A stretch of DNA of 64,000 nt. It comes from Candidatus Campbellbacteria bacterium (GTDB lineage Bacteria > Patescibacteriota > Minisyncoccia > Phycocordibacterales > JAXHMZ01). The position numbers and the translations under genes are program-made. Every line of letters begins with the position of its first letter. Positions within the stretch are counted from its first letter, which is position 1. The stretch is from positions 197,176-261,175 of the forward strand of contig JAXHMZ010000005.1 of the NCBI GenBank assembly GCA_034521025.1. The letters are read 5' to 3'. A model generated the notes under the pieces. It was not told the DNA's origin. It searched no databases and saw nothing but the letters and a program-made list of their open reading frames with translations. Shown piece after piece: positions 11,291 to 63,828 of the stretch.

Positions 11291-12850
11291 ATGCTGAAAT
11301 TCAGATTCTTTATTCTTCCAATTTCTCTTTTTGGGGTGGCTTCAGGTCTGTTTTTGTTTGAATTTTTGGGATTGGGAGAATATTTTATCCTTTTCCTCCT
11401 TTTAATAATTTTTAGCGTAGTTTTTATAGCTTTTGCGTTCAGGGCTGAAAGAAATCTGAAAGTTTTGATCGTTTTCTCATCACTGTTTTTTCTCAGCGTC
11501 ATTTTTGGTTTAATTCGCGCCAATTTATCTGAAAAAGAGTTTATTCTGTCTCGTCATTCGGGTGAAAGGATCGAAGTAATGGGTACTGTTATGAACGACC
11601 CGGAAGACCGCGGGTCTTATTTATTTGTGATCTTGGAAGCTGATTTTATCCGGACGGATAAAGTGTGCGCCTCTGTTAGTGAGCGAGTGCTAGTCAGGAC
11701 GGATCGTTTTGAACCGATATCTTATGGTGACAATTTGCGTGTTCGGGGGTTAATTGAAAGGCCGGAGCCGTTCGTTACTGACACTGATAGAGTATTTGCT
11801 TATGATGAGTTTTTAGAAAAAGATAATATCGGCGCGGTAATTTCTTTTGCTTCCGTGGACGTTATTTCTTCTGGCGATGGTAATCTTATAAAACAAATGC
11901 TTTTTTCTCTAAAGAATGAATATCTAGATACGGTGTCTCGCTATGTTCCGGACCCGGAGTCATCTCTCCTCGGTGGTTTAACGGTAGGTGCCAAGCAGTC
12001 TCTCGGCGAAGAGTTAGAAAAAGACTTTCGCTCAACCGGCATCATTCATATTGTCGTTCTTTCCGGATACAACGTAGTGATAATAGCTGAAGCAATTTTT
12101 ATTTTATTGCGATATTTTTCAACCAGAGTCAGAGTGTCGTTGGGGATCATTGCGGTGAGCTTCTTTGCCGTTCTTGTTGGCGGAGGAGCTACTGTGGTGC
12201 GCGCTTCTATAATGGCGATAGCCGCTTTAGTTGGAAGGGCGTTGGGGCGGGAAGTTCTTGCGATCCAGACATTGTTTTTTGCCGCCATTGCTATGCTAAT
12301 TTTTAATCCATCTCTCTTGCTTTATGATCCGTCTTTTCAACTATCTTTTATGGCGACTCTCGGCCTCATTCTTTTATCAAAACCCCTTGAGAAATATCTC
12401 CATTGGGTACGATACAAGTGGCTTCGCGACATAACGACCGCAACGGTAGCGACACAGTTGGCGGTTTTGCCTTTGCTAATTTACTTAGTCGGAGAAGTTT
12501 CTCTTGTTGCTCTGCCGGTCAATCTTCTGGTTCTGCCAAGTGTACCACCGGCTATGTTACTCGGATTCCTTACCGGAATTTTCGGCTCTATTCCGTTTAT
12601 CTCTCTTGTTCTCGGACCCGTATTCGGGGCTCTGTCCTTTTTCTTCTTGAGTTATGAGTTGTTAGTAATTGAAGTTTTTGCTGCTCTGCCTTTCGCTTCT
12701 CTAAGATTGCCCCACTTTCCCTTTGTGTTTGTGTTGAGTTTATACGCGTTACTCGGTTTTTTCACTTTGGTGGTTTCTCGTCCTGGCGCGGTCAGAAAAA
12801 ATATACTACTAGATGTTTCTCATTTATTTTTGGGAAAAAGAGAAAAATGA
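11291..12850 (+). CDS. comEC: ComEC/Rec2-family DNA internalisation channel protein (DUF4131 plus competence domain; no MBL domain)
   Basis: Multiple TM helices, with 'GIIHIVVLSGYNVVIIAEA' in the competence-domain region. Confidence 0.75.
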   Translation: MLKFRFFILPISLFGVASGLFLFEFLGLGEYFILFLLLIIFSVVFIAFAFRAERNLKVLIVFSSLFFLSVIFGLIRANLSEKEFILSRHSGERIEVMGTVMNDPEDRGSYLFVILEADFIRTDKVCASVSERVLVRTDRFEPISYGDNLRVRGLIERPEPFVTDTDRVFAYDEFLEKDNIGAVISFASVDVISSGDGNLIKQMLFSLKNEYLDTVSRYVPDPESSLLGGLTVGAKQSLGEELEKDFRSTGIIHIVVLSGYNVVIIAEAIFILLRYFSTRVRVSLGIIAVSFFAVLVGGGATVVRASIMAIAALVGRALGREVLAIQTLFFAAIAMLIFNPSLLLYDPSFQLSFMATLGLILLSKPLEKYLHWVRYKWLRDITTATVATQLAVLPLLIYLVGEVSLVALPVNLLVLPSVPPAMLLGFLTGIFGSIPFISLVLGPVFGALSFFFLSYELLVIEVFAALPFASLRLPHFPFVFVLSLYALLGFFTLVVSRPGAVRKNILLDVSHLFLGKREK

Positions 12851-12892
12851 AAGCCCGCTTTTACGGACTTTTAAAATTGAATCGCTCGGGGT

Positions 12893-13516
12893 TTAGGATC
12901 GCGCGCTTTGGAATCTCTCTTCCGGAACTCGCCAGTTGGTGTTTTTCATTACTGCTTCAACGTAACTGCTCTTTTCGCTCGGAGCGTAGTCCAGCATAAA
13001 GGCGTGCTCCCACATATCAATTCCAAAGATGAATTGCGCGCTGTTTAGGTGTCCAAGGTGTTGCTCATCTATCCAGCTGTTTAGCAACCTGTCTTTTTCA
13101 CGATCGTAATAAAGGATCGCGAATCCGATGCCGCGCATACCTGTTAAGTAAACGATGTCCTCCTTCCAGGTCTCGACAGAACCAAAGTCCTCTTCAAGTT
13201 TTTGAGCAAGGGGGCTTTCCGGATCTATCTCCTGAATACCTTCCGTGAACTGCTCAAAGAAATATTCGTGGTTGCGCATTCCTCCGAATTCAAAGGCGAA
13301 ACGCCTGCGCGCCTCTAGAAGAGCGTATTTGTTATTCTCATCGCCACGAAGGGACTCTATAAGATCCAGAACTTTATTGGTATTCTTTACGTAACCTGAG
13401 TAGAGACCCAGGTGGGTGTCCATTGTTTTCTCGGAGATCCCTTCGAGCGCGTGGAACTCGAATTGTTGTTCGCTATAGTGATTCATAAGTTTTACTGTTA
13501 GCTTGTAATTAATCAC
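12893..13516 (-). CDS. sodA: Fe/Mn-family superoxide dismutase
   Basis: C-terminal 'IFGIDMWEHAFMLDY' matches the GIDVWEHAYY SOD signature. N-terminal helical hairpin with His residues. 207 aa. Confidence 0.8.
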   Translation of the reverse strand: MINYKLTVKLMNHYSEQQFEFHALEGISEKTMDTHLGLYSGYVKNTNKVLDLIESLRGDENNKYALLEARRRFAFEFGGMRNHEYFFEQFTEGIQEIDPESPLAQKLEEDFGSVETWKEDIVYLTGMRGIGFAILYYDREKDRLLNSWIDEQHLGHLNSAQFIFGIDMWEHAFMLDYAPSEKSSYVEAVMKNTNWRVPEERFQSARS

Positions 13517-13537
13517 ATTGTAACACGCTTACCACCT

Positions 13538-14416
13538 ATGAGATCCTTCAGGTCTTTATTAATACTCCTTACTTTCATCTCCTTTTTTGTAGCGGTGGCG
13601 TTGTGGCTCGTCCTATTTATTCACTCAATAGAGAAACCGCTGGAGGTGGTTTTTCTCGATGTAGGGCAGGGAGACGCTATTTTTATAGAAACACCCAAGG
13701 GCGAAGAAATTCTAATAGATGGCGGTAGAGATAACTCGGTGTTGCGTGGGCTTTCGCAAGTTATGCCGTTCTGGGATCGCTCGATCGATCTTGTCATAGC
13801 GACTCACCCGGACGCTGATCATATCGGCGGAATTGTTGACGTCCTAAGAAGGTATAAAGTGAAAGCTATTCTTGATACAGAAGTAGAAAACGACACCCCG
13901 GCCTTCATTTCATATTCTCAAGAAGTTCAAAAGGAAAAAGCTCGATCGATAGATCCTGTGCGAGGCTCGCAGTTATTTTTTGACAATGTTGTTCTGACTA
14001 TTTTGTCAAAAGAATCTAGTGTGACAAGCGACCCCAACGATGCTTCGATCATTGTCCGTCTTGACTATGGCGAGACAAGCTTTTTGTTAACTGGTGACGC
14101 GGACAAGAAGACGGAGCGAGAGTTGTTGGGTTTTTACGATGCTCTTGAAGCAGATGTTTTAAAGGTGGGACACCACGGCTCAAGTACTTCTACCGCGAGC
14201 GAATTCGTCTCGGCTGTTTCACCGGAGTTCGCTGTTATATCAGTGGGCGAAGACAATTCCTATGGCCACCCAACCGATGAAGTGCTCAATACTTTAGAGA
14301 AACAAGAAGTAGAAATTCTGCGGACCGACGAAGACGGTATGATCAGATTTGAAAGTAATGGCGATATTCTCGTACAAAAGGACCCCGGATTTTTCCAAAA
14401 GTTAATAGGAATATAA
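13538..14416 (+). CDS. Metallo-beta-lactamase-fold domain protein (ComEC C-terminal nuclease-like domain encoded as a separate gene)
   Basis: N-terminal TM segment; 'LDVGQGDAIFIE', 'HPDADHIGG' and 'GHHGS' MBL motifs. Confidence 0.75.
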   Translation: MRSFRSLLILLTFISFFVAVALWLVLFIHSIEKPLEVVFLDVGQGDAIFIETPKGEEILIDGGRDNSVLRGLSQVMPFWDRSIDLVIATHPDADHIGGIVDVLRRYKVKAILDTEVENDTPAFISYSQEVQKEKARSIDPVRGSQLFFDNVVLTILSKESSVTSDPNDASIIVRLDYGETSFLLTGDADKKTERELLGFYDALEADVLKVGHHGSSTSTASEFVSAVSPEFAVISVGEDNSYGHPTDEVLNTLEKQEVEILRTDEDGMIRFESNGDILVQKDPGFFQKLIGI

Positions 14417-14430
14417 TTATTTAATCACAC

Positions 14431-14459
14431 TTGACAAAAGTATGCTTATGATATATAAA
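14431..14459 (+). promoter_or_regulatory. Sigma70-like promoter TTGACA-N17-TATAAA
   Basis: Near-consensus -35/-10 with 17-nt spacing, directly upstream of the GC-rich element. Confidence 0.55.
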
Positions 14460-14465
14460 GTAGAC

Positions 14466-14786
14466 CGACGTCCTTTTCAAACGGGAGGAGAAGAAGATGC
14501 GCGGAAGCAATAACTCGCACAAAGGTGTTCCTCGGGACGCGGATTGCGCTGTAAAGCCAACCTGCGCTCGCCCAAAGCCCTCTGGCCAAGCGAAGCGTGA
14601 TGCCGCTCGTAGGCTGCGCCAGGGGCTTAAGCAGAGAGATCGTCTCGTAACAGAGACGGCTTTCGAGGAAACCCCAAGAGAGGATACCGCAGAGCCGCGT
14701 CGCTCCACTTCCGCGATGTCTGTCTGAGCGTATACATAACGTTCTGACATCAGATAGCCCCGAGTTTAACAGCTCGGGGTTTTTTA
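14466..14786 (+). ncRNA. Unidentified GC-rich structured element (candidate ncRNA, or a 76-aa Arg-rich ORF 14497..14727)
   Basis: Bounded by a strong promoter and a hairpin (ccccgag...gctcgggg) plus T-run terminator at 14757..14786. Locally elevated GC with long-range complementarity (CGCGGAAG/CUUCCGCG). GGAGGA sits 9 nt upstream of an ATG at 14497. Confidence 0.3.
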
Positions 14787-14838
14787 TTTAGGCAACTTTA
14801 GTGTTCGATTTTCGCGCAAATTTATATATAATGGCGGT

Positions 14839-16023
14839 ATGGAACAAATGCCCCAACATCCGGATCGTCCCGACCACAATGAGCACATACCATATGATGA
14901 GTCGCCGGCGGCTAGAATAGAAAATCCATACTTTTTTTCTGAAAGTAAAGAAGGTGGCAAGGGTCTTAACTCCTACATTGAAAAGCGTTCTCTAAAGCGC
15001 GTAGAAAAAGAACGCAAAGGAGAAGAGAGCCAAGAAGAATACACGTCTCGTATGGGAAGGGCACTTGACTACACGATGGGTTTTCTCCCTAAAGCCGCCG
15101 GTAGTCTATATGAATTTCGTCAACAAAATAAAGCCAAAGAAAGCGGTGAACGTCGTCGCGTGGACGCCGAAAAACTTCTCCCGATAGTAGAGTTCCAAAA
15201 CAAGATAGTCTCAATACTTTCCGGGCTTAGTCCGGAGGATCGTTATAAATATGTGAAAGCTTCTCGGGTCGCTCTAAACGAATGGTTTGAAAAGGAAAAC
15301 ATAGACAAAGAAATTCGATCAGAAATGCGCACTACATTTGATGGTTGCGAGGCGGTTTGCGGGTATATGGATAAACGCAAAGAAGAACTGGGTGAAAATG
15401 TGAGCTTTTTTACTGATGTCTATTTGGATTGGAAGTATGGGATTGACCTGGTGGAGTTTAGTCCTCGTGAGAATAAAGAGGCGCTAGATATGCGGCTTGT
15501 ACAGAATAAGTCTTCATTCGGATCAAATGAAGATGTGGCAAAAGATCAAGAACGCCACTATTCTTGGGTTCAAAATGAACTTCTCGGTATGAACGATGTT
15601 CTGGATCGATTTTCCGAAGTGGTTGAAGCTGAATATAACTCGGAGCACCAAAAAGATCTGCGTAAGGTTTTGGCGGACTCGTTTGCTGACTCGGCGCTCG
15701 CAGCGCTTGAAATAAAACAGGGGGAGAATGAAGTCGGCTCGGAGTCAAACAAAGATAGACAGTTCTTAGAAAACGAAAGTGAATTATCCCGACTTGCCTT
15801 TGCGCTCTCTTTCCAGGAAGACGGCGAAAAGGAGAGTACCTTAGGAAATATAGCTGAGGAAATTAAAAATGAAGAGAGCGAGGACTTCATAAACAAAATT
15901 CCGATATCTAGGATATACTCTGTCTTTGCGGTGAATGATGAAACGCCAGGAAATCCGGCTTTGTTGTACTCAGAAGGTAGAGATGGAAGAAATTTGTTCA
16001 CGGGAGTTGAGCAAAGTGTATAA
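14839..16023 (+). CDS. Hypothetical protein (acidic, 394 aa)
   Basis: Long ORF with no recognisable motifs. Confidence 0.5.
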   Translation: MEQMPQHPDRPDHNEHIPYDESPAARIENPYFFSESKEGGKGLNSYIEKRSLKRVEKERKGEESQEEYTSRMGRALDYTMGFLPKAAGSLYEFRQQNKAKESGERRRVDAEKLLPIVEFQNKIVSILSGLSPEDRYKYVKASRVALNEWFEKENIDKEIRSEMRTTFDGCEAVCGYMDKRKEELGENVSFFTDVYLDWKYGIDLVEFSPRENKEALDMRLVQNKSSFGSNEDVAKDQERHYSWVQNELLGMNDVLDRFSEVVEAEYNSEHQKDLRKVLADSFADSALAALEIKQGENEVGSESNKDRQFLENESELSRLAFALSFQEDGEKESTLGNIAEEIKNEESEDFINKIPISRIYSVFAVNDETPGNPALLYSEGRDGRNLFTGVEQSV

Positions 16024-41784: not shown

Positions 41785-42096
41785 ATGAAGATCAAGAAAA
41801 ACGACAACGTTACAGTGGTTTCAGGAAAAGATAAAGGAGTAACCGGAAAAGTTACAGAGGCTTTTCCTCGTCGAAACAAAGTTGTCGTTGAAAGTGTAAA
41901 CGTGGTGAAGCGTCACGCTAAGTCGAGCAAAAAAGGGGAAAGTGGGGAGATAATTGAGAAATCTCTACCGATCGACGTTTCCAACGTAATGCTACTCGAT
42001 CCAAAAGAAAACAAACCGACAAGAATAGGCTACTCTACGAACAAGGAGGGCAAAAAGGTCCGCGTGGCGAAAAAGAGCGGCCAGAACATAGACTAA
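41785..42096 (+). CDS. rplX: 50S ribosomal protein L24
   Basis: 'MKIKKNDNVTVVSGKDKG' KOW motif. The ORF-track start at 41767 is GTG overlapping the rplN stop; the ATG at 41785 is more plausible. Confidence 0.85.
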   Translation: MKIKKNDNVTVVSGKDKGVTGKVTEAFPRRNKVVVESVNVVKRHAKSSKKGESGEIIEKSLPIDVSNVMLLDPKENKPTRIGYSTNKEGKKVRVAKKSGQNID

Positions 42097-42106
42097 TTTA
42101 GATATT

Positions 42107-60648: not shown

Positions 60649-60815
60649 GCGGTTTGTATGGTGAAGTAGGGTGAAAGTCCCTCACTGTCGCGCAACGGTT
60701 AGAGTCCGATCCCATACAATGCCTCCCAAGTGGAGCTGCTTATGATGCGCGTGACGTCCTGGTGAACACCTTTCGTATATCACCGAATGCACACGCATCG
60801 GTGATTTATGTTTTA
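60649..60815 (+). promoter_or_regulatory. Cobalamin-riboswitch-like element with an intrinsic terminator expression platform, upstream of nrdB
   Basis: P1 stem 'UUGUAUGG...CCAUACAA' enclosing 'GGUGAAAGUCCC...CACUGUCGCGCAACGGUUAGAG'. This closely parallels the E. coli btuB core 'GGAGCUGACGCGCAGCGGUAAGG' and the 'GGUGnAAnUCC' motif. It is followed by hairpin caccgaatgc / gcatcggtg plus a U-run. Confidence 0.5.
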
Positions 60816-60827
60816 AACACATAGCGT

Positions 60828-62141
60828 ATGCAAAAGACTTCCATCACAACAATAATTAAACGAGACGGTTCCGAGGAAGCCTTTGATCTTTCCAAGATCA
60901 CCGCAGCGATCTCAAAGGCTTTTGATGCGACCGATACAGGTTCGGCAGAAGAGGCGAAAAAAGTTGCCAATACAGTATATGAAAAGATCGCTACTTTATG
61001 CGATCACGCTTCTGCTGACAGAGACGCAGACGAGCGCTGCAACGATGGCAAGCCCGCCGTCGAGACCATTCAGGATCTTGTCGAAGAATCTCTTATGGAG
61101 CATAACTACCATGAGATAGCCAAACGCTATATCCTCTATCGCAACGAGCGTGCCAAACAGCGTGAACCCGACCTCTTCGAGAAGCGCACAAACCTACGCC
61201 CGTATGAATACCCTGATCTAGTTGAATATGTAGATGCTATTCGGCACTCCTACTGGCTCCATACCGAGTTTAATTTTACGAGTGACGTGCAAGATTTTAA
61301 GGTCAATGTTTCCGACAAGGAGCGTAGTGCGATCAAAAACGCTATGCTTGCAGTCGCTCAGGTTGAAGTAGCGGTTAAGACGTTCTGGGGAGATATTTAT
61401 AAAAAGATGCCAAAGCCCGAGGTAGGTGCTGTTGGCTATACGTTTGCGGAAAGCGAGGTGCGACATATGGACGCGTACGCACATCTTTTGGAAATACTTG
61501 GACTCAACGACGAATTCAAGCGCATAAAAGAGATTCCGGCTATACACGAGCGTCTCACGTATCTCGAAGACATCCTGCAAAGATCCCGCACCAATGACAA
61601 TCGTGAATATACGGAGGCGATTTTGTTATTCTCGCTTTTCACCGAGCACGTATCGCTCTTCTCGCAGTTCCTCATCATTATGTCCTTCAATAGACATAGG
61701 AATCTATTCAAGGGCATATCCAATGCGGTGGAGGCAACCTCGAAAGAGGAACAGATCCATGGACTTTTCGGGAGCGAACTTATTAATCAAATAAAGCGCG
61801 AACACCCCGAATGGTTTGACGATGAACACAAAGAGACGATCTATCAAGTGTGTCGCGACGCGTACGCCGCAGAAGAAAAGATCATTGACTGGATCTACGA
61901 GAAAGGCGAGTTGGATTTCTTGCCGGCTGTTACCGTTAAAGAGTTTGTTAAAAATCGGCTCAACAACTCGCTCGAGAGAATCGGAATGGAAAGACCCTTC
62001 GAGGTAGACGAAAAGCGTATCGAGGAGACCGATTGGTTTGACGATGAAGTGATCGCTACTAAACACAACGACTTTTTCTTCAAACGATCGATCAATTACA
62101 ACAAACGTTCCGCAAGCGTTACCAGTGATGACTTATTTTAA
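60828..62141 (+). CDS. nrdB: Class I ribonucleotide reductase beta subunit with an N-terminal ATP-cone domain
   Basis: N-terminal 'IIKRDGSEEAFDLSKITAAISKA' ATP-cone. Ferritin-like core with 'ESEVRHMDAY' (ExxH plus radical Tyr) and 'EEQIHGLF' (ExxH). Confidence 0.85.
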   Translation: MQKTSITTIIKRDGSEEAFDLSKITAAISKAFDATDTGSAEEAKKVANTVYEKIATLCDHASADRDADERCNDGKPAVETIQDLVEESLMEHNYHEIAKRYILYRNERAKQREPDLFEKRTNLRPYEYPDLVEYVDAIRHSYWLHTEFNFTSDVQDFKVNVSDKERSAIKNAMLAVAQVEVAVKTFWGDIYKKMPKPEVGAVGYTFAESEVRHMDAYAHLLEILGLNDEFKRIKEIPAIHERLTYLEDILQRSRTNDNREYTEAILLFSLFTEHVSLFSQFLIIMSFNRHRNLFKGISNAVEATSKEEQIHGLFGSELINQIKREHPEWFDDEHKETIYQVCRDAYAAEEKIIDWIYEKGELDFLPAVTVKEFVKNRLNNSLERIGMERPFEVDEKRIEETDWFDDEVIATKHNDFFFKRSINYNKRSASVTSDDLF

Positions 62142-62151
62142 ATAGTATATT

Positions 62152-63828
62152 ATGTCGTACCAATGGCTAAATGAAAACTCTCGTACTTTTCTTGAACGTG
62201 GATACCTCCAGAAGGGAGCTACCCCGGAGAGCCGCGTTCGTGAGATCGCTGAGACCGCTGAAAAGATCCTTGAAAAACCCGGTTTTGCTGATAAATTTGA
62301 AAAATACATGGCCGCCGGCTATTACTCGCTCGCTACGCCGGTCTGGATCAACTTTGGCTTAAATACCGGTTTACCGATAAGCTGTTTTGGTTCTTACATT
62401 CCGGATGATATGGCGAACATTCTCTATACTCAGGCGGAGGTGGGAATGATGAGTAAGTTCGGCGGCGGAACGTCGGCTTACTTTGGTGAGCTGCGCGGTC
62501 GTGGCGCGACGATCAAAGATCGCGGGCATTCATCCGGTTCCGTCCATTTTATGCAGCTGTTTGAGACGATCACTAATATTGTCAGTCAGGGCTCGGTACG
62601 GCGCGGACAGTTTTCTCCATATTTGCCGATCGATCATCCGGACATTGAAGAATTCCTTGATATTGGTTCAGAAGGGAATCCTATCCAGAAGCTCACTCAC
62701 GGTGTCACCGTTGATGACAAGTGGCTGCAGGGGATGATCGACGGCGACGAGGATAAGCGCCGTATTTGGGCGAAACTCATCGAACGGCGCGGACAAATGG
62801 GCTATCCCTATATTTTCTTCACTGACAATGTGAACAACAATACCGTTGATGTTTATAAAGATAAGGATCTCAAAATCTACGCGAGCAATCTCTGCACAGA
62901 GATCATGCTTCCGTCGCGGTCAGATTGGTCGTTTGTCTGCGATCTCTCCTCAATGAACCTGCTGTACTATGACGAATGGAAGGACACGGATGCCGTCGAG
63001 ACAATGACGCAACTTCTCGACGCTGTTATGAGCGAGTTTATACAAAAGCTAGAGGCTTTGCGTGATTCGGACGATAAAGATGATCGACTCGCATTCTTGT
63101 TTATGGAGCGCGCGTACAATTTCGCAACCGCGAACCGCGCGATCGGACTCGGCGCACTCGGCTGGCATTCTCTGCTGCAATCGAAAATGATCCCACTCGA
63201 GAGCGATGAAGCGAATGAGATAAATGCTGAGATCTTCAAAACCATTCGTGACAAAGCTTATGCCGCTTCTTCCCAGATGGCTAAGGATTATGGCGAACCC
63301 GAAATTCTCAAAGGCTATGGCCGCCGCAACACAACCGTTATGGCGGTTGCACCGACCACGTCCTCGGCTTTTATTATCGGTCAAGTGTCTCAGAGTATCG
63401 AACCCTACTTCTCTAACTGCTATGTCAAAGACATCGATAAGATGAAGGTAACGATCCGCAATAGCTCGCTTGAGAAGCTGCTTGAAGAAAAAGGAAAAAA
63501 TGATCGCGAAACCTGGAGCAGTATCCGTGACAACGACGGTTCCGTCCAGCACCTCTCATTCCTTAACGAGAATGAAAAAGCTGTCTTTCGCACGTTCGCC
63601 GAGATCGACCAATCTGTGATCATCAAGCAGGCGGCAGATAGGCAAGAGTACATTGATCAGGCCCAGTCTCTCAATCTAATGATCCCGCCGGATATGTCCG
63701 CCAAGGAAATAAACGAACTCTATCTCTTGGCCTGGCGTCAAGGAGTAAAAACACTGTACTACCAACATAGCATGAATGCAGCCCAACAACTCAGCCGAGC
63801 AAAGGTGTGCATTGCGTGTGAAGCATAA
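62152..63828 (+). CDS. nrdA: Class I ribonucleotide reductase alpha subunit, short form without an ATP-cone
   Basis: 'NLCTEIMLPS' active-site region and a C-terminal 'CIAC' cysteine pair. 558 aa, with no N-terminal ATP-cone. Confidence 0.85.
   Translation: MSYQWLNENSRTFLERGYLQKGATPESRVREIAETAEKILEKPGFADKFEKYMAAGYYSLATPVWINFGLNTGLPISCFGSYIPDDMANILYTQAEVGMMSKFGGGTSAYFGELRGRGATIKDRGHSSGSVHFMQLFETITNIVSQGSVRRGQFSPYLPIDHPDIEEFLDIGSEGNPIQKLTHGVTVDDKWLQGMIDGDEDKRRIWAKLIERRGQMGYPYIFFTDNVNNNTVDVYKDKDLKIYASNLCTEIMLPSRSDWSFVCDLSSMNLLYYDEWKDTDAVETMTQLLDAVMSEFIQKLEALRDSDDKDDRLAFLFMERAYNFATANRAIGLGALGWHSLLQSKMIPLESDEANEINAEIFKTIRDKAYAASSQMAKDYGEPEILKGYGRRNTTVMAVAPTTSSAFIIGQVSQSIEPYFSNCYVKDIDKMKVTIRNSSLEKLLEEKGKNDRETWSSIRDNDGSVQHLSFLNENEKAVFRTFAEIDQSVIIKQAADRQEYIDQAQSLNLMIPPDMSAKEINELYLLAWRQGVKTLYYQHSMNAAQQLSRAKVCIACEA

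What the first reader, a model, noticed from the sequence alone, without database searches (positions are those of the whole stretch)
14431..14786. Autonomous ~320-nt GC-rich transcription unit of unknown identity (ncRNA or small Arg-rich protein)
A near-consensus TTGACA-N17-TATAAA promoter sits ~360 nt upstream of a strong hairpin plus U-run terminator (14757-14786). The enclosed sequence is much more GC-rich than its surroundings. It has long-range complementary segments (CGCGGAAG...CUUCCGCG) and a 'CAAAGCCCUCU / AGAGACGGCUUU' pairing reminiscent of an RNase P P4 helix, but the spacing does not fit RNase P, tmRNA or SRP RNA. A 76-aa Arg-rich ORF (14497-14727) with GGAGGA 9 nt upstream is also embedded. 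The unit is flanked by the ComEC MBL gene and a hypothetical gene, each with its own signals.
Basis: seen in the sequence. Interest (0 to 1): 0.6.

Follow-up and report, generated by a model that had tools for sequence, protein, structure and literature searches.

The report
Small basic protein gene, structured mRNA
This is a self-contained gene for a 76-residue, positively charged protein known only from a few close relatives of this ultra-small (CPR, Campbellbacteria-like) bacterium; it is not an RNase P-like or other stand-alone RNA, although its messenger is unusually GC-rich and rich in hairpins.

Summary
The transcription unit is real. It has a TTGACA-N17-TATAAA promoter (14431-14459), a GGAGGA ribosome-binding site, a 76-codon ORF (14497-14727) and an intrinsic terminator (14756-14786). 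Its GC content is 0.60 against about 0.44 around it.

It is a protein gene, not a stand-alone ncRNA:
- Seven distinct relatives carry a promoter, ribosome-binding site, 80-89-codon ORF and terminator in the same slot after the ComEC MBL gene.
- A profile built from those seven, without the window, picks the window's ORF frame as the best of 1862 six-frame pieces (E = 2.4e-6).
- The closest pair of relatives differs 9/9/33 times by codon position (dN 0.09, dS 0.83).
- Only the sense frame is open in all members.
- Rfam, ARAGORN and RNAalifold find no RNA family and no conserved fold apart from the terminator.
- The "P4-like" and 8-bp long-range pairings are at chance level and not conserved.

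The protein is basic (pI 10.5). It is predicted to form one long helix flanked by disorder, and it matches no known family.

One unexpected feature is that GC3 is far above that of neighbouring genes in the seven family members compared. The mRNAs also fold better than synonymous-codon permutations, and two hairpins recur at the same codon positions. The function is unknown; I infer nucleic-acid binding. Interest is low to moderate.

The parts
14431..14459 (+). Sigma-70-type promoter: -35 TTGACA (14431-14436), 17-nt spacer, -10 TATAAA (14454-14459). The inferred transcription start is near 14466-14468.
   Evidence: Sequence. There are 2 matches in 64 kb against 0.34 expected. A perfect TTGACA with a TATAAT-like -10 lies at the same place in L005, L009, L010, L011, L013, L097 and L101.
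14484..14489 (+). Shine-Dalgarno sequence GGAGGA, 7 nt before the start codon.
   Evidence: Every relative has GGAGG, GGAG or AGGAG 6-9 nt before its start codon.
14497..14727 (+). Coding sequence of a 76-aa basic protein: MRGSNNSHKGVPRDADCAVKPTCARPKPSGQAKRDAARRLRQGLKQRDRLVTETAFEETPREDTAEPRRSTSAMSV.
   Evidence: ORF. A profile of 7 relatives hits this frame at E = 2.4e-6, the best of 1862 six-frame pieces. Purifying selection is seen in the relatives. pI is 10.5. AlphaFold2 predicts a helix at residues 31-57 (pLDDT about 88) with the rest disordered.
14533..14570 (+). mRNA hairpin A. Its 3' arm contains the invariant Cys codon (UGC, 14563-14565).
   Evidence: Local fold of -18.1 kcal/mol. The Cys codon lies in a hairpin in all 8 family members: in the 3' arm in seven and mostly in the loop in L097, with different stem sequences. 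The family mean z against synonymous permutations is -1.19 in this alignment bin.
14634..14664 (+). mRNA hairpin B (GAGAG-A-UCGUCUC GUAACA GAGACGG-CUUUC).
   Evidence: A hairpin is centred at the same codon-alignment position (about column 173) in window, L005, L009, L013, L010 and L011, and within 16 nt of it in L101 and L097. The family mean z is -1.57 in this bin, and -2.9 for the window.
14756..14786 (+). Intrinsic terminator: an 11-bp stem with 6 G-C pairs and a 4-nt loop, followed by a U-run.
   Evidence: It is the only element in the RNAalifold consensus of 8 homologous transcripts. The weak Rfam matches at E = 0.02-0.5 cover only this hairpin.

Best explanation
The unit is a monocistronic gene for a small basic protein.

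Shown:
- A near-consensus sigma-70 promoter, a GGAGGA ribosome-binding site, a 76-codon ORF and an intrinsic terminator.
- The same arrangement sits in the same slot (after the separate ComEC MBL-domain gene) in close relatives of this Campbellbacteria-like CPR bacterium.
- The ORFs form one small, fast-evolving family with the shared motif T-C-x-x-P-K-L-x-G-x-x-K-x-x-A-x-R-x-x-R-x-x-x-K-x-x-D-R.
- The family is under purifying selection in the sense frame.

Inferred: the transcript is about 320 nt with a 5' UTR of about 30 nt. The protein has a disordered basic N-terminus, then one amphipathic helix of about 27 residues with a stripe of conserved Lys/Arg, then an acidic disordered tail. Such a protein most likely binds nucleic acid or an acidic partner.

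Shown: synonymous sites are GC-enriched, and the mRNAs fold more stably than synonymous-codon permutations, with two hairpins at conserved codon positions.

Inferred: these hairpins act in cis on the gene's own mRNA, through stability or translation rate, and do not make it a trans-acting RNA.
For: Synteny: the order RNase H, ComEC, SOD(-), MBL, small unit, then L28(-), M50, S12, S7 and EF-G is kept in relatives whose MBL protein is 56-62% identical.

Each small unit has a TTGACA -35 box, a ribosome-binding site 6-9 nt before the start codon, an ORF of 76-89 aa and a terminator.

Homology: a profile of 5 relatives without the window gives E = 0.0031. A profile of 7 relatives gives E = 2.4e-6. 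In both searches the window frame (14464-14724, +) is the top hit in the six-frame translation of all 64 kb.

Selection: L009 and L013 differ 9/9/33 times by codon position, with dN 0.092 and dS 0.83. For the neighbouring MBL gene the values are 0.046 and 0.58.

Frames: the sense frame is open in all members. Each antisense frame is either interrupted by stops in several members, or has dN/dS of about 1.9.

No RNA family was found. Apart from the terminator there is no consensus RNA fold.

Protein properties: pI 9.2-10.9 across the family; helix at residues 31-57 with pLDDT about 88.

mRNA properties: GC3 is 0.56-0.81, against 0.30-0.56 in neighbouring genes including S12, S7 and EF-G. Synonymous-permutation z is -2.45 for the window, -3.45 for L009, -2.69 for L010 and -4.29 for L011. 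Position-specific dips occur at alignment columns of about 72 and 168.
Against: There are no expression or proteomic data.

The window's own copy cannot be tested for selection, because the only other copy (L002) is 100% identical.

The window copy is the most divergent member. It shares 20-32% identity with the others. It lacks the C-terminal A-A-H...G..[YF][FL]..K motif of the L009, L010, L011 and L101 type. Its GC by codon position is atypical (0.64/0.58/0.56). Searched alone, it finds no homologue.

The family comprises only 5 clusters among 5.8 billion proteins and has no functional annotation. The proposed nucleic-acid binding therefore rests only on charge and predicted helix.

The excess mRNA structure and elevated GC3 are not typical of an ordinary small gene, so an added RNA-level role remains possible.
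Confidence: 0.82

Rival explanations
1. Dual-function RNA. The transcript encodes the small protein and also acts as a structured RNA, for example by being bound by its own arginine-rich helix for autoregulation, or by acting on other targets.
For: GC3 is raised in the seven family members compared, well above ribosomal-protein genes of the same contigs. Native mRNAs are more stable than synonymous permutations in 8 of 8 members, and clearly so in 5. Two hairpins recur at the same codon positions with different stem sequences. L011 has a perfect 17-bp inverted repeat inside the coding sequence.
Against: There is no conserved global fold. The ORF fills 72% of the transcript. The hairpin registers shift between members, so strict covariation could not be scored. 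L005, L097 and L101 show little or no excess stability. The window ORF alone has z = -2.43, which is within the background range. No target or binding partner is known.
Confidence: 0.1
2. Stand-alone structured ncRNA, either a reduced RNase P-like RNA or a new class, in which the ORF is fortuitous.
For: The whole transcript folds with z = -4.83. ACAGAGACGGCUUU resembles the 3' strand of RNase P helix P4; this comparison is from my own knowledge of the E. coli M1 sequence. The GC content resembles that of structural RNAs in AT-rich genomes.
Against: No Rfam match to the body was found at E <= 10. The codon-position bias and dN/dS of 0.11 in relatives, the conserved ribosome-binding site, start codon and open frame, and the protein-level profile match in frame all point to translation. 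The proposed pairings are at chance level and not conserved. The two P4-like strands are about 80 nt apart, against about 290 nt in E. coli M1 RNA. The unit is absent from L003 and replaced by unrelated short ORFs in L008 and L015, which does not fit an essential RNA.
Confidence: 0.03
3. Type I toxin-like module: a small toxic protein translated from a highly structured, stable mRNA that is held in check by RNA structure or an antisense RNA.
For: It is a monocistronic small ORF with a strong promoter and terminator, excess mRNA structure, patchy presence among relatives and rapid sequence divergence.
Against: The protein is strongly hydrophilic (GRAVY -1.23) and basic, with no hydrophobic segment. 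No antisense promoter or terminator is evident: the only minus-strand promoter-like site, at 14437-14410, points away from the unit. There is no PADLOC match. The ribosome-binding site is not obviously sequestered in a conserved way.
Confidence: 0.03
4. Leader peptide or attenuator that controls the downstream 394-aa gene (14839-16023).
For: The terminator lies 52 nt before the next start codon. In L011 the next ORF starts directly after the terminator.
Against: The downstream slot holds two unrelated genes in different relatives: a protein of about 400 aa, or a ClpP-like protein of about 170 aa. The small ORF stays the same throughout. In L005, L009, L013 and L014 the downstream gene has its own TTGACA/TATAAT promoter. 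In the window a TATAAT lies at 14826-14831. An ORF of 76-89 aa under purifying selection is not leader-peptide-like.
Confidence: 0.02

Closest known systems
Unannotated or 'hypothetical' lineage-specific small proteins of Patescibacteria (clusters P0123-P0126; JGI calls P0126 'hypothetical protein')
   Same: Same syntenic slot, same promoter / ribosome-binding site / ORF / terminator layout, and the shared motif T-C-x-x-P-K-L-x-G...K..A.R..R...K..D-R.
   Different: The window copy lacks the C-terminal A-A-H...G..[YF][FL]..K segment, which is predicted as a beta-hairpin in the L011 type. It ends in an acidic disordered tail and shares only 20-32% identity with the others.
Dual-function small RNAs (SgrS/SgrT, RNAIII/hld, SR1/SR1P); comparison from general knowledge
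   Same: A short autonomous transcript with its own promoter and terminator, a structured RNA, and a small protein encoded within it.
   Different: Here the ORF fills most of the transcript. No base-pairing target or conserved non-coding domain was found, and the only consensus structure is the terminator.
Arginine-rich-motif RNA-binding helices (lambda N, HIV Rev); comparison from general knowledge
   Same: A single basic helix with Lys/Arg spaced 3-4 residues apart, and RNA hairpins present in its own mRNA.
   Different: There is no sequence relationship and binding was not tested. This is a lead only.
Type I toxin mRNAs (hok, tisB and others); comparison from general knowledge
   Same: A small ORF within a stable, highly folded monocistronic mRNA.
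   Different: The protein is hydrophilic and basic rather than a membrane peptide, and no antisense RNA is evident.
Bacterial RNase P RNA (Rfam RF00010 / RF00011)
   Same: Only a 14-nt resemblance of ACAGAGACGGCUUU to the 3' strand of P4.
   Different: There is no covariance-model match. The spacing is wrong. The segment is part of a local hairpin. The pairing is not conserved. The region is translated in relatives.

Membership tests
Bacterial RNase P RNA (type A/B) | Match to the Rfam covariance models RF00010 / RF00011 (P1-P4 core with conserved regions CR-I to CR-V) | tested here: not met
   No match at the gathering score over the whole window, and none at E <= 10 over 14350-14860.
Bacterial RNase P RNA (type A/B) | A P4 helix formed by distant strands and conserved in relatives | tested here: not met
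   The strands are about 80 nt apart. The 3' strand pairs locally in hairpin B. No such pair appears in the consensus fold of 8 homologues.
Bacterial RNase P RNA (type A/B) | Essential and therefore present in all close relatives | tested here: not met
   L003 has no unit at this locus. This does not exclude a copy elsewhere in that genome.
tmRNA / tRNA-like | tRNA-like domain and tag reading frame | tested here: not met
   ARAGORN finds no gene in the window.
SRP RNA, 6S RNA and other curated ncRNA families | Rfam covariance-model match | tested here: not met
   Only terminator-type matches were found, well below the gathering scores.
Protein-coding gene (new small-protein family of the Campbellbacteria-like clade) | Open frame with start codon and ribosome-binding site kept across diverged homologues, with other frames not kept | tested here: met
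Protein-coding gene (new small-protein family of the Campbellbacteria-like clade) | Purifying selection at the amino-acid level (third-position bias, dN/dS well below 1) | tested here: met
   L009 against L013: 9/9/33 differences by codon position, dN 0.092, dS 0.83. This could not be tested for the window copy itself, because L002 is identical.
Protein-coding gene (new small-protein family of the Campbellbacteria-like clade) | The window ORF is recognised by a profile of the other members, in frame | tested here: met
   E = 2.4e-6, the top hit of 1862 six-frame pieces. The family profile retrieves P0001 at 1.5e-19 in the large database, but there the window sequence was part of the query.
Type I toxin | Hydrophobic or membrane-active small peptide | tested here: not met
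   GRAVY -1.23, pI 10.5.
Type I toxin | Cognate antisense RNA | tested here: inconclusive
   The consensus scan finds no antisense promoter or terminator. No transcript data are available.
Dual-function sRNA | RNA-level activity independent of translation | not testable with these tools
   Only indirect signs are available: raised GC3 and excess folding.
Known protein families (Pfam, NCBIfam, PHROGs, PADLOC, PDB) | Profile or fold match | tested here: not met
   Searches gave no significant match.

The most novel reading that the evidence does not exclude
The transcript is a genuinely bifunctional, structure-selected mRNA. Selection has driven synonymous sites to high GC in an AT-rich CPR genome so as to keep two or more hairpins inside the coding sequence. 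The encoded arginine/lysine-rich helix binds those hairpins, or similar ones elsewhere. This would make a compact protein-RNA autoregulatory or RNA-chaperone module specific to this clade.
Probability: 0.12. Interest if true: 0.5.

Novelty: new member of a known kind. Interest (0 to 1): 0.25.

Why it matters
The main value is a correction. A GC-rich, well-folding, promoter-to-terminator unit in an AT-rich genome looks like a new ncRNA, but comparative data show a small protein gene. NCBI's annotation of this MAG appears not to list it: the only source for the protein is Logan.

The work adds one small, clade-restricted family to the many uncharacterised small proteins of Patescibacteria. It also gives a clear example of synonymous sites shaped by mRNA structure (GC3 up to 0.81 against 0.3-0.5 in neighbouring genes). 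That example could be worth a reporter experiment. No long-standing question depends on it.

Tried and rejected
- **RNA family searches.** Rfam at gathering score and at E <= 10 gave only terminator look-alikes. ARAGORN found nothing.
- **Window ORF searched alone.** The word-index search found only the ORF itself. Full phmmer against 1.84 billion representatives found only the ORF itself plus a compositional hit to a 1518-aa protein.
- **Genome-collection scan with the MBL protein.** It returned one Nomurabacteria locus (L001, 42% identity) in which L28 directly follows MBL and there is no unit.
- **Metagenome scan with the MBL alignment.** None carries a family member.
- **blastn against phages and plasmids.** No match.
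- **Protein family and structure searches.** Pfam, NCBIfam, PADLOC, PHROGs and PDB sequence searches found nothing. The AlphaFold2 models give only a helix, or a helix plus a beta-hairpin at pLDDT 71. Foldseek against PDB gave nothing below E = 5.
- **RNAalifold on 8 full transcripts.** Only the terminator is in the consensus.
- **Second profile hit at 41958-42098.** It lies inside ribosomal protein L24 and is compositional.
- **Minus-strand 109-aa ORF (14421-14750).** It is a shadow ORF: that frame has 1-5 stops in the relatives.
- **Idea that the 394-aa downstream protein and the ClpP-like protein of relatives are homologous.** Rejected.
- **Literature.** Searches for RNase P in Patescibacteria and for small proteins in Campbellbacteria found nothing relevant.

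Full report
**1. What is in the sequence**

- TTGACA at 14431-14436, a 17-nt spacer and TATAAA at 14454-14459.
- GGAGGA at 14484-14489, 7 nt before an ATG at 14497.
- A 76-codon ORF ending at 14727.
- A hairpin of 11 pairs at 14756-14781 followed by a T-run.

The promoter pattern TTGACA-N16-18-TANAAW occurs only twice in the 64-kb window on both strands, against 0.34 expected.

GC content is 0.60 in the ORF, against 0.42-0.47 on either side.

The whole transcript folds with z = -4.83 on the + strand and -2.66 on the - strand. The terminator contributes much of this. The ORF alone gives z = -2.43. Arbitrary 231-nt pieces of the same window have mean -0.47 and sd 1.15, and 7.5% of them reach -2.43.

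The 8-bp long-range complement (14500-14507 / 14707-14714) is the only one in the transcript. In 37% of dinucleotide shuffles there is at least one.

**2. Not a known RNA**

Rfam at gathering score finds only an AdoCbl-II riboswitch elsewhere in the window. A permissive scan of 14350-14860 at E <= 10 finds only families that consist largely of a terminator hairpin, all far below their thresholds. ARAGORN finds no tRNA or tmRNA.

The 'P4-like' 3' strand (14652-14663) is predicted to be the 3' arm of a local hairpin at 14634-14664. The proposed 5' partner (14573-14583) pairs with 14622-14627.

**3. Source and relatives**

The flanking MBL-domain protein is 100% identical to a protein that NCBI names as from a Candidatus Campbellbacteria MAG. 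Its nearest relatives are only 56-62% identical.

I fetched their contigs. The gene order is kept: RNase H, ComEC, SOD on the minus strand, MBL, a variable segment, then L28 on the minus strand, M50 peptidase, S12, S7 and EF-G.

Directly after MBL, seven distinct relatives (L005, L009, L013, L010, L011, L097, L101) carry four elements in order:
- a perfect TTGACA with a TATAAT-like -10 box;
- a ribosome-binding site 6-9 nt before an ATG;
- an ORF of 80-89 codons;
- a terminator.

These are shown.

L003 lacks the unit. L008, L014 and L015 carry shorter or very divergent ORFs in the same place. A more distant Nomurabacteria locus and 80 metagenome loci with MBL at 38-49% identity have no family member.

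**4. It is a protein gene**

The ORF products align with a shared motif, T-C-x-x-P-K-L-x-G-x-x-K-x-x-A-x-R-x-x-R-x-x-x-K-x-x-D-R, followed by an acidic stretch.

A profile built from five relatives, without the window, ranks the window's ORF frame first among 1862 six-frame pieces of the whole window (E = 0.0031). With seven relatives the E-value is 2.4e-6, and the alignment covers the motif and the helix. The second hit lies inside ribosomal protein L24 and is compositional.

The closest pair, L009 and L013, differs at 9, 9 and 33 sites in codon positions 1, 2 and 3. This gives dN 0.092 and dS 0.83, comparable to the neighbouring MBL gene at 0.046 and 0.58.

The periodicity alone could also fit one antisense frame, so I checked all frames. 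Only the sense frame is open in every member. The antisense frame that matches the window's 109-aa minus-strand ORF has 1-5 stops in the relatives. The fully complementary frame has dN/dS of about 1.9.

RNAalifold on the eight full transcripts puts only the terminator in the consensus structure. There is therefore no conserved global RNA architecture.

**5. What the protein looks like**

The family is tiny. A profile search of 5.8 billion proteins returns five clusters, none with a Pfam domain and one labelled 'hypothetical protein'. The window ORF alone finds nothing. Pfam, NCBIfam, PADLOC, PHROGs and PDB sequence searches are empty.

All members are basic (pI 9.2-10.9) and hydrophilic.

AlphaFold2 predicts for the window protein one helix, residues 31-57 (pLDDT about 88), flanked by low-confidence regions. 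For the L011 type it predicts the same long helix plus a C-terminal beta-hairpin at moderate confidence, with no Foldseek match in the PDB.

The window copy lacks that C-terminal segment and ends in an acidic tail.

From charge, the 3-4 residue spacing of conserved Lys/Arg and the single helix, I infer a nucleic-acid-binding protein, or one that binds an acidic partner. This step is inference, not a result.

**6. The unusual part: the mRNA**

GC3 of the small ORF is well above all neighbouring genes in six of the seven family members compared, including S12, S7 and EF-G where those are present. In the window it exceeds every neighbour but only narrowly (0.56 against SOD at 0.54):

| Member | GC3, small ORF | GC3, neighbouring genes |
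|---|---|---|
| window | 0.56 | 0.39-0.54 |
| L005 | 0.66 | 0.30-0.42 |
| L009 | 0.71 | 0.46-0.68 |
| L010 | 0.78 | 0.36-0.46 |
| L011 | 0.58 | 0.39-0.43 |
| L097 | 0.81 | 0.51-0.52 |
| L101 | 0.73 | 0.42-0.43 |

Dinucleotide-shuffle z-scores of the ORFs range from -0.2 to -5.7.

Against permutations of synonymous codons within each gene, which keep the protein and the codon usage, the native mRNA is more stable in all eight members:

| Member | z against synonymous permutations |
|---|---|
| window | -2.45 |
| L009 | -3.45 |
| L013 | -3.87 |
| L010 | -2.69 |
| L011 | -4.29 |
| L005, L097, L101 | weak or no excess stability |

A sliding 36-nt profile mapped onto the codon alignment shows two family-wide dips, and about 0 in most other bins:
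- Around column 72, mean z is -1.19. Here the invariant Cys codon lies in a hairpin in all eight members, in the 3' arm in seven and mostly in the loop in L097.
- Around column 168, mean z is -1.57. This region encodes L-x-E-E-L.

The stem sequences differ between members. L011 even carries a perfect 17-bp inverted repeat inside the coding sequence.

In the window the two hairpins are at 14533-14570 and 14634-14664. Because the registers shift between members, I could not score strict covariation. The evidence is positional recurrence plus excess stability at synonymous sites.

I read this as selection on the mRNA's own stability or translation. A separate RNA-level function is possible but unsupported.

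**7. Alternatives**

- *Stand-alone ncRNA or RNase P-like RNA.* Contradicted by sections 2 and 4 and by the unit's absence from L003.
- *Type I toxin.* The protein is hydrophilic. The consensus scan shows no antisense promoter or terminator, and PADLOC is empty.
- *Leader or attenuator for the next gene.* The next slot holds unrelated genes in different relatives. In L005, L009, L013 and L014, and probably in the window, the downstream gene has its own promoter.
- *Degenerating copy in the window.* This cannot be excluded, because only an identical second copy exists and the window member is the most divergent. Its frame, ribosome-binding site, promoter and terminator are nevertheless all intact.

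**8. Verdict**

The unit is a previously undescribed, clade-restricted small basic protein gene with a GC-enriched, hairpin-rich mRNA. It is a new member of a known kind, and interest is low to moderate.

Noticed in passing
window 60651-60722 (+), with genes at 60828-62141 and 62152-63828: An AdoCbl-II (cobalamin) riboswitch aptamer (41.3 bits, above its gathering score) lies directly upstream of class I ribonucleotide reductase genes: an ATP-cone plus small-chain protein, then the large chain. I would guess that B12 represses a B12-independent RNR, which would be notable in a reduced CPR genome.
   Followed up: partly
window 11291-14416; also L003-L015, L097, L101: ComEC is split in this clade. 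The DUF4131 + Competence gene (11291-12850) and a separate MBL-domain gene (13538-14416) are separated by an Fe/Mn superoxide dismutase gene on the opposite strand (12893-13516). The arrangement is kept in all relatives fetched whose contigs reach that far.
   Followed up: partly
window 14826-14841: The 394-aa hypothetical gene (14839-16023) has a TATAAT at 14826-14831, only 7 nt before its ATG, and no ribosome-binding site. It may therefore be a leaderless mRNA. The protein has no Pfam or PADLOC match.
   Followed up: no
slot after the small ORF: window 14839-16023; L009 11412-11930; L003 9287-9793: The gene that follows the small ORF is either a hypothetical protein of about 380-430 aa (window, L008, L010, L011, L015, L101) or a protein of about 170 aa (L003, L009, L013, L014), which has a weak ClpP match in L009 and L013. 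The window's 394-aa protein and the L009 ClpP-like protein show no similarity.
   Followed up: partly
L011 4100-4136 (inside the small ORF): There is a perfect 17-bp inverted repeat inside the coding sequence (UCGACCGCAAGUUCUU-UGCU-GAAGAACUUGCGGUCGA, encoding LDRKFFAEELAVD). This is far beyond what the protein sequence requires.
   Followed up: partly
terminators after the small ORF in L005, L009, L010, L011, L013 and L101: The terminator stems share the sequence CCAGC(Y)TCT...AGA(R)GCTGG across lineages whose coding sequences are only about 30% identical. The window's terminator (AGCCCCGAG...CUCGGGGUU) is different.
   Followed up: no
window 14421-14750 (-): The 109-aa minus-strand ORF that overlaps the whole unit is a shadow ORF of the GC-rich gene. 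The same frame has 1-5 stop codons in every relative.
   Followed up: yes
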